This document shows positions 1,180 to 7,670 of a stretch of 8,546 bases of DNA, one piece after another. The notes beneath the pieces were generated by a model. The model had not been told where the DNA came from and ran no database searches. It saw nothing but the letters and a program-made list of their open reading frames with translations. Made by a program: the position numbers and the translations under genes. The stretch comes from a virus (taxonomy: Duplodnaviria; Heunggongvirae; Uroviricota; Caudoviricetes), in IMG/VR virus record IMGVR_UViG_2531839200_000005; one strand, given 5' to 3'. The stretch's first letter is position 1; each line of letters begins with the position of its first letter.

Positions 1180-1205
<26 letters not shown>
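660..1205 (+). CDS. nu1: Terminase small subunit (gpNu1)
   Basis: 181-aa ORF, MEVNKKQLADIFGASIRTIQNWQEQGMPVLRGGGKGNEVLYD..., which I recognise as lambda Nu1. The N-terminal winged helix-turn-helix region is the cosB-binding domain. Same length and position relative to cos as in lambda. Confidence 0.95.
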
Positions 1206-4886
<3,681 letters not shown>

Positions 4887-4906
<20 letters not shown>

Positions 4907-6206
4907 TCTCCCGCATATTGCCAGCATGGCTTTTAATGAGCCGCTGATGCTTGAACCCGCCTATGCGCGGGTTTTCTTTTGTGCGCTTGCAGGCCAGCTT
5001 GGGATCAGCCGCCTGACGGATGCAGTATCCGGCGACAGCCTGACTGCCGGAGAGGCACCCGCGGCGCTGGCGTTATCCGGTGATGATGACGGACCACGAC
5101 AGGCCCGGAGTTATCAGGTCATGAACGGCATCGCCGTGCTGCCGGTGTCCGGTACGCTGGTCAGCCGGACGCGGGCGCTGCAGCCGTATTCGGGGATGAC
5201 CGGTTACAACGGCATTATCGCCCGTCTGCAACAGGCTGCCAGCGACCCGATGGTGGACGGCATTCTGCTCGATATGGACACACCGGGCGGAATGGTGGCG
5301 GGAGCATTTGACTGTGCTGACATCATCGCCCGTGTGCGTGACATAAAACCGGTATGGGCGCTGGCCAACGACATGAACTGCAGTGCAGGTCAGCTGCTTG
5401 CCAGCGCCGCCTCCCGGCGTCTGGTCACGCAGACCGCCCGGACAGGCTCCATCGGCGTCATGATGGCTCACAGTAATTACGGTGCTGCCCTGGAGAAACA
5501 GGGCGTGGAAATCACGCTGATTTACAGCGGCAGCCATAAGGTGGATGGCAACCCCTACAGCCATCTACCGGGTGATGTCCGGGAAACACTGCAGTCCCGG
5601 ATGGATGCAACCCGCCGGATGTTTGCGCAGAAGGTGTCGGCATATACCGGCCTGTCCGTGCAGGCTGTGCTGGATACCGAGGCTGCAGTGTACAGCGGTC
5701 AGGAGGCCATTGATGCCGGACTGGCTGATGAACTTGTCAACAGCACCGATGCGATCACCGTTATGCGTGATGCACTGGATGCACGTAAATCCCGTCTCTC
5801 AGGAGGGCGAATGACCAAAGAGACTCAATCAACAACTGTTTCAGCCACTGCTTCGCAGGCTGACGTTACTGGCGTGGTGCCAGCGATGGAGGGCGAAAAC
5901 GCCAGCGCGGCGCAGCCGGACGTGAACGCGCAGATCACCGCTGCGGTTGCGGCAGAAAACAGCCGCATTATGGGGATCCTCAACTGTGAGGAGGCTCACG
6001 GACGCGAAGAACAGGCCCGCGTGCTGGCAGAAACCCCCGGTATGACCGTGGAAACGGCCCGCCGCATTCTGGCCGCAGCACCACAGAGTGCACAGGCGCG
6101 CAGTGATACTGCGCTGGATCGTCTGATGCAGGGGGCACCGGCACCGCTGGCTGCAGGTAACCCGGCATCTGATGCCGTTAACGATTTGCTGAACACACCA
6201 GTGTAA
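4887..6206 (+). CDS. C: Head maturation protease / scaffold fusion gpC (S49 ClpP/SppA-like serine protease N-terminal domain)
   Basis: GTG at 4887 lies just downstream of a GAGGAGGAG Shine-Dalgarno run (4875-4883) and gives MTAELRNLPHIASMAFNEPLMLEPAYARVFF..., 439 aa as in lambda C. The ORF-track start at 4752 is an in-frame upstream Met inside B and is probably not used. Overlaps the B 3' end by 20 nt. Confidence 0.9.
5601..6206 (+). CDS. nu3: Scaffolding protein gpNu3, translated from an in-frame internal start within C
   Basis: ATG at 5601 is 714 nt into the C frame, the same offset as lambda nu3 within C. It encodes MDATRRMFAQKVSAYTGLSVQ... (201 aa) and shares the C stop codon. Confidence 0.8.
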   Translation: MDATRRMFAQKVSAYTGLSVQAVLDTEAAVYSGQEAIDAGLADELVNSTDAITVMRDALDARKSRLSGGRMTKETQSTTVSATASQADVTGVVPAMEGENASAAQPDVNAQITAAVAAENSRIMGILNCEEAHGREEQARVLAETPGMTVETARRILAAAPQSAQARSDTALDRLMQGAPAPLAAGNPASDAVNDLLNTPV

Positions 6207-6210
6207 GGGA
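6205..6210 (+). promoter_or_regulatory. Shine-Dalgarno for D
   Basis: AAGGGA sits 5 nt upstream of ATG 6216. Confidence 0.5.
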
Positions 6211-6215
6211 TGTTT

Positions 6216-6548
6216 ATGACGAGCAAAGAAACCTTTACCCATTACCAGCCGCTGGGCAACAGTGACCCGGCTCATACCGCAACCGCGCCCGGCGGATTGA
6301 GTGCGAAAGCGTCTGCAATGACCCCGCTGATGCTGGACACCGCCACCCGTAAGCTGGTTGCGTGGGATGGCACCACCGACGGTGCTGCCGTTGGCATTCT
6401 TGCGGTTGCTGCTGACCAGACCAGCACCACGCTGACGTTCTACAAGTCCGGCACGTTCCGTTATGAGGATGTGCTCTGGCCGGAGGCTGCCAGCGACGAG
6501 ACGAAAAAACGGACCGTGTTTGCCGGAACGGCAATCAGCATCGTTTAA
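6216..6548 (+). CDS. D: Head decoration protein gpD
   Basis: 110-aa ORF from ATG 6216, [27 protein letters not shown]...AISIV. An AAGGGA Shine-Dalgarno at 6205-6210 favours ATG 6216 over the upstream in-frame ATG 6210. Confidence 0.93.
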
Positions 6549-6565
6549 CCTTACCCTTCATCACT

Positions 6566-6590
6566 AAAGGCCGCCTGTGCGGCTTTTTTT
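6566..6590 (+). terminator. Intrinsic-terminator-like hairpin with U-tract in the D-E intergenic region
   Basis: AAAGGCCGC-CTGT-GCGGCTTTTTTT: 5 G:C pairs extendable by A:U pairs, a 4-nt loop, then 7 T (6584-6590) and a second T7 run at 6597-6603 immediately before the E start codon. Confidence 0.5.
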
Positions 6591-6603
6591 ACGGGATTTT
6601 TTT

Positions 6604-7629
6604 ATGTCGATGTACACAACCGCCCAGCTGCTGGCGGCAAATGAGCAGAAATTTAAGTTTGATCCGCTGTTTCTGCGTCTCTTTTTCCGTGAGAGCTATC
6701 CCTTCACCACGGAGAAAGTCTATCTCTCACAAATTCCGGGACTGGTAAACATGGCGCTGTACGTTTCGCCGATTGTTTCCGGTGAGGTTATCCGTTCCCG
6801 TGGCGGCTCCACCTCTGAATTTACGCCGGGATATGTCAAGCCGAAGCATGAGGTGAATCCGCAGATGACCCTGCGTCGCCTGCCGGATGAAGATCCGCAG
6901 AATCTGGCGGACCCGGCTTACCGCCGCCGTCGCATCATCATGCAGAACATGCGTGACGAAGAGCTGGCCATTGCCCAGGTCGAAGAGATGCAGGCAGTTT
7001 CTGCCGTGCTTAAGGGCAAATACACCATGACCGGTGAAGCCTTTGATCCGGTTGAGGTGGATATGGGCCGCAGTGCGGCAAACAACATCACACAGTCCGG
7101 TGGCACGGAGTGGAGCAAGCGTGACAAGTCCACGTATGACCCGACCGACGATATCGAAGCCTACGCGCTGAACGCCAGCGGCGTGGTGAATATCATCGTG
7201 TTTGATCCGAAAGGCTGGGCGCTGTTCCGTTCCTTCAAAGCCGTCAGGGATAAGCTGGATACCCGTCGCGGCTCTCATTCCGAGCTGGAGACAGCGGTAA
7301 AAGACCTGGGCAAAGCGGTGTCTTATAAGGGAATGTATGGCGATGTGGCCATCGTCGTGTATTCCGGACAGTACGTGGAAAACGGCGTCAAAAAGAACTT
7401 CCTGCCGGACAACACGATGGTGCTGGGGAACACTCAGGCACGCGGTCTGCGTACCTATGGCTGTATTCAGGATGCGGACGCACAGCGCGAAGGCATTAAC
7501 GCCTCTGCCCGTTACCCGAAAAACTGGGTGACTACCGGCGATCCGGCGCGAGAGTTCACCATGATTCAGTCAGCACCGCTGATGCTGCTGGCTGACCCTG
7601 ATGAGTTCGTGTCTGTACAACTGGCGTAA
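6604..7629 (+). CDS. E: Major capsid protein gpE (HK97-fold)
   Basis: 341-aa ORF from ATG 6604, MSMYTTAQLLAANEQKFKFDPLFLRLFFRESYPFTTEKVYLSQIPGLVNMALYVSPIVSGE.... The ORF-track start at 6577 lies inside the upstream hairpin and is rejected. Confidence 0.95.
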   Translation: MSMYTTAQLLAANEQKFKFDPLFLRLFFRESYPFTTEKVYLSQIPGLVNMALYVSPIVSGEVIRSRGGSTSEFTPGYVKPKHEVNPQMTLRRLPDEDPQNLADPAYRRRRIIMQNMRDEELAIAQVEEMQAVSAVLKGKYTMTGEAFDPVEVDMGRSAANNITQSGGTEWSKRDKSTYDPTDDIEAYALNASGVVNIIVFDPKGWALFRSFKAVRDKLDTRRGSHSELETAVKDLGKAVSYKGMYGDVAIVVYSGQYVENGVKKNFLPDNTMVLGNTQARGLRTYGCIQDADAQREGINASARYPKNWVTTGDPAREFTMIQSAPLMLLADPDEFVSVQLA

Positions 7630-7631
7630 TC

Positions 7632-7649
7632 ATGGCCCTTCGGGGCCAT
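7632..7649 (+). other. Stem-loop with UUCG tetraloop in the E-FI intergenic region (possible attenuator or mRNA stability element)
   Basis: ATGGCCC-TTCG-GGGCCAT: perfect 7-bp stem, UUCG loop, starting 3 nt after the E stop codon and followed by the U-rich TGTTTCTCTGT. Confidence 0.4.
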
Positions 7650-7670
7650 TGTTTCTCTGTGGATGAGTCC

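What the first reader, a model, noticed from the sequence alone, without database searches (positions are those of the whole stretch)
6549..6603. Terminator-like hairpin plus double U-tract immediately before the major capsid gene
A GC-rich stem (GGCCGC/GCGGC) with a CTGT loop is followed by T7, then ACGGGA, then a second T7 that ends at the E start codon. A strong intrinsic terminator between D and E would be odd, since E is the most abundantly required head protein. More likely roles are a partial attenuator, an RNA-processing or stability element, or a structure that sets E translation initiation; the only Shine-Dalgarno-like sequence is the weak GGGA at 6593-6596.
Basis: seen in the sequence. 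Interest (0 to 1): 0.4.

Follow-up and report, generated by a model that had tools for sequence, protein, structure and literature searches.

The report
Conserved terminator hairpin before capsid gene
The hairpin plus U-run between the lambda-type head genes D and E is a real, evolutionarily conserved, textbook-shaped transcription terminator. Relatives' genome records already annotate it, and it is not paradoxical, because late transcription in these phages is made by terminator-proof (Q-modified) RNA polymerase.

Summary
The hairpin GGCCGC/CTGT/GCGGC lies at 6569-6583, followed by T7 (6584-6590), ACGGGA, T7 (6597-6603) and the E ATG at 6604. The motif is far from chance: 0.008 such sites are expected per shuffled window.

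The window is a lambda-type head operon, 98.9% identical to lambda and 99.9% to Stx1a phages. GenBank records of N15, HK225, HK629 and 434 already annotate the same element as a putative rho-independent terminator.

Hairpin plus U6-8 is kept in 26 of 29 diverged relatives (E 56-100% aa identity). Loops vary freely, several stem sequences are unrelated, and the stem sits 18-25 nt (mostly 20) before the capsid-gene ATG. The second T7 is not conserved (N15-like phages have AAAAATCT). It is simply the SD-to-AUG spacer.

Best reading: a genuine intrinsic terminator that Q-loaded polymerase reads through, so it acts only on unmodified polymerase. The hairpin then persists in the late mRNA, possibly as a decay barrier. 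Its U-run doubles as the U-rich upstream flank of E's weak GGGA ribosome site.

Function has never been tested directly and I found no 3'-end data. Novelty is low.

One speculative reading survives: hairpin + spacer + second U7 formally fits the hypothetical "Q-dependent terminator" of Yin et al. 2022.

The parts
6546..6548 (+). Stop codon (TAA) of the head-decoration gene D (ORF 6210-6548)
   Evidence: The gene is annotated as D / head decoration protein in lambda, 434 and HK629.
6549..6565 (+). Variable spacer between the D stop codon and the hairpin. It keeps the hairpin outside the footprint of a ribosome terminating on D.
   Evidence: The sequence varies even among near-identical relatives (CTT/TTT/CTG). 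Sequence and length are unrelated in N15-like and more distant relatives.
6566..6587 (+). Terminator-type hairpin. The GC core GGCCGC/GCGGC lies at 6569-6583 with loop CTGT at 6575-6578. The stem can extend to AAAGGCCGC/GCGGCUUU.
   Evidence: - Folding energy is -8.9 to -11.8 kcal/mol.
- 96% of alignment cells are paired across 26 distinct relatives. Two pairs carry double changes, there are several wobble changes, and the loop has no consensus.
- More distant relatives have unrelated stems at the same place.
6584..6590 (+). First U-tract (T7). It is the terminator's U-run and at the same time the U-rich segment directly upstream of E's SD.
   Evidence: - Five of the T columns are invariant and one more is >=90% conserved in alignment A2.
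- The run is T5-T8 (mostly T7) in the 26 of 29 lineages that carry the motif.
- A T>=5 run upstream of the capsid gene occurs in only 2 of 32 family members that lack the hairpin.
6593..6596 (+). Weak Shine-Dalgarno sequence GGGA of gene E, 7 nt before the ATG
   Evidence: GGGA, AGGA or GGG is conserved at this position in relatives. It is annotated as the RBS in the 434 record.
6597..6603 (+). Second T7. This is the SD-to-AUG spacer of E and is not a conserved part of the terminator.
   Evidence: - N15, HK225 and about 12 enterobacterial prophages have AAAAATCT or AAATATCT instead.
- 569R10 has TATATAA.
- A T-run is kept only in the lambda type, in Erwinia L120 (T7) and in L136 (T6).
- Source.
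6604..6606 (+). ATG start codon of the major capsid gene E (6604-7629, 341 aa)
   Evidence: The mechanical ORF start GTG 6577 lies inside the hairpin and is not conserved in N15-like sequences.
7632..7649 (+). Companion hairpin in the E-Fi gap: ATGGCCC-UUCG-GGGCCAU followed by UGUUUCU. E is therefore bracketed by the only two sizeable non-coding gaps of the head operon, and each gap holds a hairpin.
   Evidence: -.
- Annotated as a putative rho-independent terminator after the capsid gene in N15 and HK225.
- A strong hairpin follows the capsid gene in Chi, K251, Suzuki, AchV4, RcPescado and PPF1.

Best explanation
The element is a bona fide intrinsic (Rho-independent) terminator kept by selection in the D-E gap of lambda/N15-type head operons.

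**How it most likely works**
1. RNA polymerase that is not antitermination-modified folds the 5-9 bp GC hairpin. Such polymerase could come from spurious or read-in transcription in the prophage, or from complexes that never loaded Q. It releases the RNA in or just after the U7 run (about 6589-6592), immediately before E's ribosome-binding site.
2. Q-loaded late polymerase cannot form the hairpin at its exit channel and reads through. E and the downstream genes are therefore fully transcribed only in the antiterminated late mode.
3. In the read-through late mRNA the hairpin folds behind the polymerase. There it probably serves as a barrier to 3'-exonucleases for the D-containing segment, as the E-Fi hairpin would for E.
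4. The U7 run and the A/U-rich SD-AUG spacer (the second T7) give the weak GGGA ribosome site an unstructured U-rich platform.

**Shown:** the motif, its non-randomness, its conservation and co-variation, and its fixed position next to the RBS.

**From literature:** Q-loaded polymerase ignores terminators.

**Inferred:** actual termination of unmodified polymerase here, the decay-barrier role and the translational role.
For: - **Canonical architecture on the coding strand.** It starts 21 nt after the D stop and is expected 0.008 times per shuffled window.
- **Conservation in close and mid-distance relatives.** Hairpin plus T-run is present at the D|E junction in 26 of 29 diverged loci (E 56-100% aa identity). 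Other + strand terminator-like hits in about 113 kb are sporadic.
- **Stem versus loop.** The stem is conserved or compensated while the loop is free: 96% of cells are paired and 15 different loops are seen.
- **Independent stems in the same slot.** Unrelated stems occupy it: GCCGC, CCGCC, GAGCC, GGCCAC, CCGCGC and GGCTGCC, plus GGGCGCC in alphaproteobacterial prophages read directly from the sequence. The U-run is retained in these, which a mere exonuclease barrier would not need.
- **U-run tied to the hairpin.** It is essentially never present without the hairpin (2 of 32).
- **Prior annotation.** Annotators of N15, HK225, HK629 and 434 independently called it a rho-independent terminator.
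- **Read-through mechanism.** Q-loaded RNAP processively ignores terminators by blocking hairpin formation (PMC9388147; PMC7547250).
- **Precedent.** Intra-late-operon terminators are a known feature of lambdoid phages. Stopping non-antiterminated transcription is one proposed role (PMC8022706).
- **Absence outside the lineage.** The five more distant phages sampled (Chi, AchV4, Suzuki, RcPescado, PPF1) lack a decoration|capsid terminator. That fits its being tolerated where late transcription is antiterminated. However, n is small, the samples are phylogenetically confounded, and the lifestyle and transcription control of these phages are assumed from general knowledge rather than checked.
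Against: - I found no transcript 3'-end, in vitro termination or mutational data for this site. The held literature has nothing on the sequence. The one Term-seq data set on an Stx phage concerns a prophage with a different head module.
- It is unclear how much unmodified polymerase ever reaches this point, so the selective value of a barrier here is uncertain.
- The two hairpins specifically bracket the most highly expressed gene. The stem-to-ATG distance is nearly fixed at 18-25 nt. Both facts hint at a role in expression level (mRNA stability or translation) rather than insulation.
- The stem is short (5-6 G-C pairs), so efficiency could be modest.
- The lifestyle correlation rests on few, related lineages.
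Confidence: 0.5

Rival explanations
1. The primary role is post-transcriptional. The hairpin is a segmental mRNA stabiliser. After endonucleolytic cuts in the 20+ kb late mRNA, 3'-to-5' exonucleases stall at the D|E hairpin (protecting D) and at the E|Fi hairpin (protecting E). This raises the steady-state level of the two most needed head messages. Termination is incidental.
For: - D|E (55 nt) and E|Fi (41 nt) are the only sizeable non-coding gaps in the head operon, and each carries a stable hairpin.
- A hairpin right after the capsid gene is present in all six distant phages sampled and meets the terminator-type criterion in 27 of 60 IMG/VR contexts.
- D2-like phages keep a D|E hairpin with a degenerate U-run.
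- Hairpin decay barriers in polycistronic mRNAs are established biology (malEFG REP elements, the puf operon; my own knowledge).
Against: - An exonuclease barrier needs no U-run, yet T6-8 immediately after the stem is among the most conserved features.
- No decay or abundance data are available.
- By my recollection, Sampson et al. 1988 (PNAS 85:5439; not retrievable) attributed lambda late-gene expression ratios mainly to translation initiation.
Confidence: 0.25
2. It is mainly a translation-initiation device for E. The U-rich tract or tracts flanking the weak GGGA SD would recruit 30S subunits through ribosomal protein S1 (an A/U-rich enhancer or standby site). The hairpin would insulate the site from pairing with upstream D coding RNA. 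The closest analogue is the terminator-like hairpin + U8 just upstream of the SD of E. coli rnd, whose U-run is required for translation.
For: - The stem end lies 18-25 nt (mostly 20) from the ATG in nearly all lineages, even those with unrelated stems.
- The SD is weak (GGGA), and SDs are weaker on average where the terminator is present (score 3.2 vs 4.3).
- The SD-AUG spacer is A/U-rich in most lineages with the element (Serratia L135 is an exception with GGGCCT).
Against: - The RBS opening energy is not consistently changed by disrupting or deleting the hairpin in silico.
- A U-run upstream of the capsid gene appears in only 2 of 32 family members without the hairpin, so it is not a general requirement of these ribosome sites.
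- The fixed spacing is also what simple compaction gives: U7 + SD + spacer.
- A/U-rich enhancers are reported to help strong SDs much more than weak ones.
Confidence: 0.15
3. It is a partial attenuator of the late transcript itself. A fraction of late polymerases stop after D, lowering transcription of E and everything downstream.
For: The motif is a good terminator. Partial termination is one role proposed for intra-operon terminators in phage L/P22. Leaky terminators tune expression in other phages (PMC9163698).
Against: - E is needed in about the same copy number as D and more than any upstream gene, so attenuating just before E makes no stoichiometric sense (copy numbers are my own knowledge).
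- Q-loaded complexes are described as an effectively absolute barrier to terminator-hairpin formation.
Confidence: 0.05
4. The motif is a chance or relic sequence with no function.
For: There is no experimental function. The core stem GCCGC/GCGGC is nearly invariant in the lambda/N15 clade, so some of the conservation is shared ancestry.
Against: Expected 0.008 per window. It is retained while the flanking intergenic sequence and the loop diverge freely. Unrelated stems occupy the same slot in distant lineages.
Confidence: 0.02

Closest known systems
Putative rho-independent terminators annotated between the decoration and major-head genes of N15 (AF064539, stem_loop 5980-6004), HK225, HK629 and phage 434
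   Same: The genomic slot (D|E gap) and strand are the same. In HK629 and 434 the sequence is the same element: the query is 98.9% identical overall, and HK629's 70 nt upstream of the ATG differ from the window at a single base outside the hairpin. In N15 and HK225 the core stem GCCGC/GCGGC and the T7 are the same.
   Different: Nothing essential differs. N15 and HK225 have a CTGC loop and an AAAAATCT or AAATATCT spacer instead of the second T7. All these annotations are computational and none has been tested experimentally.
Intra-operon terminators of lambdoid late operons (for example after the procapsid module of P22/L; discussed in PMC8022706)
   Same: A terminator-shaped element sits inside a single-promoter, antiterminator-controlled late operon next to head genes. 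The role is acknowledged as unknown. Proposed roles are partial termination or stopping non-antiterminated transcription.
   Different: The head-gene family is different and the position is downstream of the procapsid module rather than upstream of the capsid gene.
Canonical intrinsic terminators read through by Q-loaded RNAP (lambda tR')
   Same: A GC hairpin is immediately followed by a 7-9 nt U-run. Q-loaded complexes are expected to ignore it.
   Different: tR' is the regulatory target next to the Q loading site and has been tested experimentally. This site lies several kb into the operon, abuts an RBS, and is untested.
E. coli rnd (RNase D) 5'-UTR: terminator-like hairpin + U8 upstream of the SD, with the U-run required for translation (Zhang & Deutscher 1992, PNAS 89:2605; content from memory, reference seen)
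   Same: A hairpin plus U-run sits directly 5' of a ribosome-binding site that lacks strong initiation signals.
   Different: rnd is a monocistronic leader, whereas this is an intercistronic site in an antiterminated operon. No translation data exist here, and the comparative data tie the U-run to the hairpin rather than to the RBS.
Hypothetical 'Q-dependent terminators' (hairpin + spacer + 7-9 nt U-tract) proposed in Yin et al. 2022, PMC9388147
   Same: The lambda-type sequence has a hairpin, then 13 nt (9 nt if the A-U extension is counted), then a U7 run.
   Different: - No such terminator has been demonstrated anywhere.
- The required spacer length is unknown; the torus overlaps only 4-5 bp of a terminator stem.
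- The second U7 is absent in N15-like relatives.
- Stopping late polymerase before E would be harmful.

Membership tests
Intrinsic (Rho-independent) terminator | GC-rich stem of >=5 bp with a 3-8 nt loop | tested here: met
   The stem GGCCGC/GCGGC has 5 G-C pairs plus a G.U pair and extends to 9 bp. The loop is CUGU. Folding energy is -8.9 to -11.8 kcal/mol.
Intrinsic (Rho-independent) terminator | A U-run of about 7-9 nt immediately 3' of the stem | tested here: met
   T7 lies at 6584-6590, directly after the GC core. It is conserved as T5-T8, mostly T7, in 26 of 29 lineages.
Intrinsic (Rho-independent) terminator | On the transcribed strand, in untranslated RNA clear of the terminating ribosome | tested here: met
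   It is on the same strand as D and E. The GC stem starts 21 nt after the D stop codon. On the opposite strand the hairpin is followed only by CTTTAGTG.
Intrinsic (Rho-independent) terminator | Produces RNA 3' ends or releases RNAP in vitro or in vivo | not testable with these tools
   I found no 3'-end data for this head module.
Intrinsic (Rho-independent) terminator | Structure maintained by selection (stem conserved or compensated, loop free) | tested here: met
   96.1% of cells are paired, 2 pairs carry double changes, and slid controls give 29-70%. There are 15 loop variants and unrelated stems in distant lineages. The core stem is mostly invariant, so covariation proper is limited.
Hypothetical Q-dependent terminator (Yin et al. 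2022) | Hairpin, then a spacer matching the Q-nozzle extension, then a 7-9 nt U-tract | tested here: inconclusive
   The layout is formally present: hairpin, then 13 nt (or 9 nt), then U7 at 6597-6603. The required spacer length is undefined, and the torus overlaps only 4-5 bp of a stem.
Hypothetical Q-dependent terminator (Yin et al. 2022) | The spaced U-tract is conserved among relatives that use the same head module | tested here: not met
   N15, HK225 and about 12 enterobacterial prophages have AAAAATCT or AAATATCT. Only the lambda type, Erwinia L120 and L136 keep a T-run.
A/U-rich (S1-dependent) translational enhancer | An unstructured A/U-rich tract directly upstream of, or around, the SD of a highly expressed gene | tested here: met
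   The sequence is UUUUUUUACGGGAUUUUUUUAUG. The 30 nt upstream of the start are 60% A+T on average in lineages with the element.
A/U-rich (S1-dependent) translational enhancer | The tract is a property of the RBS itself, so it should be present in homologous capsid-gene RBSs independently of the hairpin | tested here: not met
   A T>=5 run within 30 nt upstream of the start occurs in 2 of 32 family members that lack the hairpin.
Structure-controlled RBS (hairpin sets initiation by changing accessibility) | Removing the structure changes the predicted accessibility of the SD to +13 region | tested here: not met
   Opening cost is 3.8-6.1 kcal/mol in wild type and 3.4-7.2 in the stem-mutant or deleted versions. 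The sign is inconsistent across four context sizes. This is thermodynamic modelling only.
Intercistronic mRNA decay barrier (REP- or puf-type stabiliser hairpin) | A stable hairpin just 3' of a highly expressed cistron within a polycistronic RNA | tested here: met
   Hairpins lie 3' of D (6566-6587) and 3' of E (7632-7649, UUCG loop, about -17 kcal/mol for the whole gap).
Intercistronic mRNA decay barrier (REP- or puf-type stabiliser hairpin) | Upstream segment more stable or more abundant, with processed 3' ends at the hairpin | not testable with these tools
   No RNA data are accessible.
Moron (autonomous promoter-gene-terminator insert) | Its own promoter upstream of the inserted gene, and patchy presence of the gene | tested here: not met
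   There is no sigma-70-like promoter near D. The order protease - decoration - capsid is conserved even in distant phages that lack the terminator.

The most novel reading that the evidence does not exclude
In lambda-type phages the layout hairpin - U7 - ACGGGA - U7 might be a natural example of the 'Q-dependent' terminator or pause site hypothesised by Yin et al. 2022: a hairpin, a spacer matching the Q-nozzle extension, then a 7-9 nt U-tract. When the RNA 3' end reaches the end of the second U-run (6603), the base of the GC stem (6583) is 20 nt upstream and the base of the extended stem (6587) is 16 nt upstream. That is roughly where the RNA would emerge from a nozzle-extended exit channel. 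The site could therefore pause or partly release Q-loaded polymerase exactly on E's ribosome-binding site, for example to let ribosomes load. The evidence does not exclude this, but non-conservation of the second U-run and the cost of stopping before E weigh against it.
Probability: 0.03. Interest if true: 0.8.

Novelty: already known. Interest (0 to 1): 0.22.

Why it matters
It matters little as a discovery. The element is the lambda D-E intergenic hairpin. It is identical across the many near-identical lambda-like sequences examined and already annotated as a putative terminator in several relatives.

Three things are worth keeping:
1. The apparent paradox (a terminator in front of the most needed head gene) is resolved by Q antitermination.
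2. The comparative picture is clean. Terminator-type hairpins with unrelated stems sit about 20 nt before the E-family capsid gene in many lineages, and the U-run travels with the hairpin. This argues that termination-competent geometry, not just a stem, is under selection. It makes a cheap, well-defined test case for the unanswered question of what intra-operon terminators do in antiterminated phage operons.
3. The lambda-type double U-run is a ready-made natural candidate for the spacer-library experiment proposed for 'Q-dependent terminators'.

Tried and rejected
- **Rfam, whole window, E<=1.** Only a sub-threshold Leu_leader hit at 6495-6590 (21 bits against a gathering score of 50). I read it as a generic match to the terminator shape and rejected it.
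Key older papers could not be retrieved: Sampson 1988, Liu 2013, Casjens & Hendrix 2015 and Zhang & Deutscher 1992. Sanger 1982 and Ravin 2000 were not attempted.
- **Term-seq of EHEC Sakai (Sy et al. 2020).** No supplement is held, and the Sakai Stx1 prophage Sp15 has a different head module with a fused protease/scaffold-type head. The data would not cover this element.
- **RBS-accessibility model.** No consistent effect of the hairpin.
- **Moron hypothesis for gene D.** Rejected: no promoter and gene order conserved without the terminator in distant phages.
- **Alternative E start at GTG 6577.** This start is listed by the ORF tool and used in record OM418625. Rejected because it lies in the hairpin and is not conserved in N15-like sequences.
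- **Bidirectional terminator.** Rejected for the lambda type, since the reverse strand has only CTTTAGTG after the stem.
- **Single-protein locus searches.** They returned mostly near-identical sequences. An alignment query was needed for diversity.

Full report
**1. What the window is.**

The ORF layout and megablast show the left arm of a lambda-type phage. The genes, in window coordinates, are:

| Gene | Coordinates |
|---|---|
| Nu1 | 660-1205 |
| A | 1180-3105 |
| W | 3102-3308 |
| B | 3305-4906 |
| C/Nu3 | ending at 6206 |
| D | 6210-6548 |
| E | 6604-7629 |
| Fi | from 7671 |
| FII | from 8081 |

The 6100-6900 segment is 99.9% identical to ten Stx1a-converting phages and 98.9% identical to lambda J02459, HK629, HK630, 434 and DE3. 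The finding's span 6549-6603 is exactly the D-E intergenic region.

**2.

Reading the sequence gives the following:
- 5' arm GGCCGC at 6569-6574, loop CTGT at 6575-6578, 3' arm GCGGC at 6579-6583.
- First T7 at 6584-6590, then ACGGGA at 6591-6596 (GGGA at 6593-6596).
- Second T7 at 6597-6603, then the ATG at 6604.

The stem can extend to AAAGGCCGC/GCGGCUUU. ViennaRNA gives -8.9 kcal/mol for the GC core and -11.8 for the extended stem. The minimum-free-energy fold of the 86-nt context contains exactly this hairpin.

The two T7 runs are the only T>=7 runs in the window; 0.24 are expected. Under a stringent terminator definition the + strand has two sites, this one and 4953-4974. Shuffles give 0.008 on average, and 7 of 1000 have any.

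The built-in scan missed the site. Its stated rules suggest that greedy stem extension through the A-U pairs eats the T-tract. That is a tool artefact, not evidence against the site.

**3. It is already annotated in relatives.**
- The 434 record OL657226 and the HK629 record carry 'terminator, rho-independent' at the homologous 21 nt.
- N15 (AF064539) annotates a 'putative rho-indep. transcription terminator' both before and after its major head gene. HK225 does the same.
- One record (Lambda imm21, OM418625) instead starts E at the GTG inside the hairpin. That start is not conserved in N15-like sequences.

**4. Comparative anatomy.**

*Close relatives.* Among 83 loci examined, mostly near-identical (E 99-100% aa identity), variation falls in three places. 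These are the loop (CTGT, CTTT, CGGT, ATGT), the stretch right after the D stop, and the lengths of the T-runs (6-8). The two stem changes seen are transitions that keep a G.U pair.

*Diverged relatives.* I collected loci with a genome scan using an E-protein alignment and from phage records.
- 26 of 29 loci with E at 56-100% identity carry a GC hairpin plus T-run in the D|E gap. In about 113 kb scanned, other + strand hits are sporadic, apart from the E|Fi gap.
- Stems include GCCGC/GCGGC, GGGTCGC/GCGGCCC, CCGCC/GGCGG, GGCCAC/GTGGCC and GGCTGCC/GGCGGCC. Fifteen different loops occur.
- The distance from stem end to ATG is 18-25 nt, mostly 20.
- Counting pairs gives 96.1% paired cells, two pairs with changes on both sides, and slid controls at 29-70%. 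Because the core stem is mostly invariant, formal covariation is limited.
- The stronger argument is that unrelated stems recur in the same slot. A wider IMG/VR sample of 60 distinct contexts adds GAGCC/GGCTC (Vibrio K251-like, four loop variants) and CCGCGC/GCGCGG, mostly 19-24 nt from the ATG. Alphaproteobacterial prophages with E at 31% identity have GGGCGCC-TCG-GGCGCCC followed by a T-rich tail.

*Where it is absent.* The hairpin is missing in Providencia prophages, in Chi, AchV4, Suzuki, RcPescado and PPF1, and in about half of the environmental contigs. D2-like phages keep a hairpin with a degenerate T-run.

**5. The 'double U-tract' is two different things.**
- The first run is conserved with the hairpin.
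- The second lies between the SD and the ATG. It is AAAAATCT or AAATATCT in N15, HK225 and about a dozen enterobacterial prophages, and TATATAA in 569R10. It is a T-run only in the lambda type, Erwinia L120 and L136. It is an A/U-rich SD-AUG spacer.
- A T>=5 run within 30 nt upstream of the capsid gene occurs in only 2 of 32 family members without the hairpin. The first U-run therefore belongs to the terminator unit rather than being a general feature of these ribosome sites.

**6. E is bracketed.**

D|E (55 nt) and E|Fi (41 nt) are the only sizeable gaps in the head operon; the other junctions overlap or are <=11 nt. The E|Fi gap holds ATGGCCC-UUCG-GGGCCAU followed by a weaker U-rich tail. 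The same UUCG-loop hairpin is found in eight diverged loci of the 29-locus set. A strong hairpin follows the capsid gene in all six distant phages sampled.

**7. Why a terminator here is not odd.**

Lambdoid late operons are transcribed by Q-loaded RNAP. [quoted passage not shown] They suggest partial termination or stopping transcription that started without antitermination (PMC8022706).

**8. Mechanism.**

*Most likely (0.5):* a genuine intrinsic terminator that acts only on non-antiterminated polymerase and is transparent to Q-loaded polymerase. Retention of a perfect U-run next to the stem is what termination needs and what a mere stem would not need. That is the main argument. Absence from the five distant phages sampled fits, but n is small and confounded, and I did not check their lifestyle or transcription control. 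In the read-through mRNA the hairpin must fold. It plausibly doubles as a 3'-exonuclease barrier, and its U-run forms the upstream flank of E's weak ribosome site.

*Rivals:*
- **Primary role as a decay barrier (0.25).** This is supported by the bracketing of E and weakened by the conserved U-run.
- **Primary role in E translation (0.15).** This is supported by the fixed spacing, the weak SD and the S1/A-U enhancer literature. It is weakened.
- **Attenuation of late transcription (0.05).** This makes no stoichiometric sense and conflicts with Q.
- **No function (0.02).**

These roles are not mutually exclusive, and none has been tested. I found no 3'-end or mutational data. The only Stx-phage Term-seq data set concerns a prophage with a different head module.

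**9. A speculative lead.**

Yin et al. 2022 propose that a Q nozzle could create 'Q-dependent' terminators: a hairpin, a spacer and a 7-9 nt U-tract. They ask whether such sequences exist in phage genomes.

The lambda-type layout fits this formally. With the RNA 3' end at 6603, the stem base is 16-20 nt upstream. Three points weigh against it:
- The second U-run is not conserved.
- The expected spacer is probably shorter, since the torus overlaps 4-5 bp of a stem.
- Stopping before E would be costly.

I put this at about 3%. It is cheap to test in the in vitro system those authors already have.

**10. Verdict.**

The element is a real, conserved and already-annotated intrinsic-terminator-type sequence. 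It is ordinary in kind and its function is unproven. Their sense of paradox is resolved by antitermination, and their 'double U-tract' should be split into a terminator U-run and an RBS spacer.

Noticed in passing
window 7632-7649 (E-Fi gap 7630-7670): A very stable hairpin with a UUCG tetraloop (ATGGCCC-UUCG-GGGCCAU), followed by a weak U-rich tail, lies directly after the E stop codon. The same UUCG-loop hairpin is found in eight diverged loci of the 29-locus set, and N15 and HK225 annotate it as a putative terminator. All six distant E-family phages sampled have a strong hairpin after the capsid gene.
   Followed up: partly
window 4953-4974 (+ tail to 4984): This is the second site meeting the stringent terminator definition: GAACCCGC-CTAT-GCGCGGGTT followed by TTCTTTTG. 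It lies about 66 nt inside the coding region of gene C (codons EPAYARVFFC), just downstream of the B stop codon. It is equally improbable by chance. I did not check its conservation in relatives.
   Followed up: no
loci L090-L105, L107, L123, L126, L131, L138, L140-L148, L150-L152, L154-L158, L160-L161: Near-identical lambda capsid-gene sequence (about 96-100%) sits on short, often low-coverage contigs in species-representative assemblies of unrelated bacteria, including Neobacillus, Kitasatospora, Shewanella, Pseudomonas, Paenibacillus, Prevotella, Corynebacterium and Akkermansia. This is most likely lambda control-DNA contamination of those assemblies.
   Followed up: no
window 6577 (GTG) vs 6604 (ATG); L003 / OM418625 CDS CPT_lambdaimm21_008: The mechanical ORF, and one GenBank record (Lambda imm21), start gene E at a GTG inside the terminator hairpin, 27 nt upstream of the ATG used in the other annotated records inspected (434, HK629, N15, HK225). 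The GTG is not conserved in N15-like relatives, so this is probably a mis-annotation.
   Followed up: partly
window 6569-6590, tool behaviour: The built-in terminator scan did not report this textbook terminator. It appears to extend the stem greedily through the A-U pairs and then finds too few T left in the tail. Terminators with an upstream A-tract may be missed systematically.
   Followed up: partly
capsid-gene ribosome sites across L108-L267: E-family capsid genes preceded by the terminator have weaker SD motifs on average (GGGA/AGGA, score 3.2) than those without it (AGGAG/AAGGA, score 4.3). This could mean the U-run compensates for a weak SD, or it could just reflect phylogeny.
   Followed up: no
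window 6495-6590: There is a sub-threshold Rfam match to Leu_leader (21 bits against a gathering score of 50, E = 0.94). I read it as a generic match to the hairpin + U-run shape.
   Followed up: yes
L171 (E. coli O157:H7 Sakai, prophage Sp15): The Sakai Stx1 prophage has a different head module (portal, then protease/scaffold-type genes, one interrupted by IS629) from the Stx1a phages LC645428-37 that match this window at 99.9%. Stx1 phages therefore carry at least two unrelated head modules.
   Followed up: no
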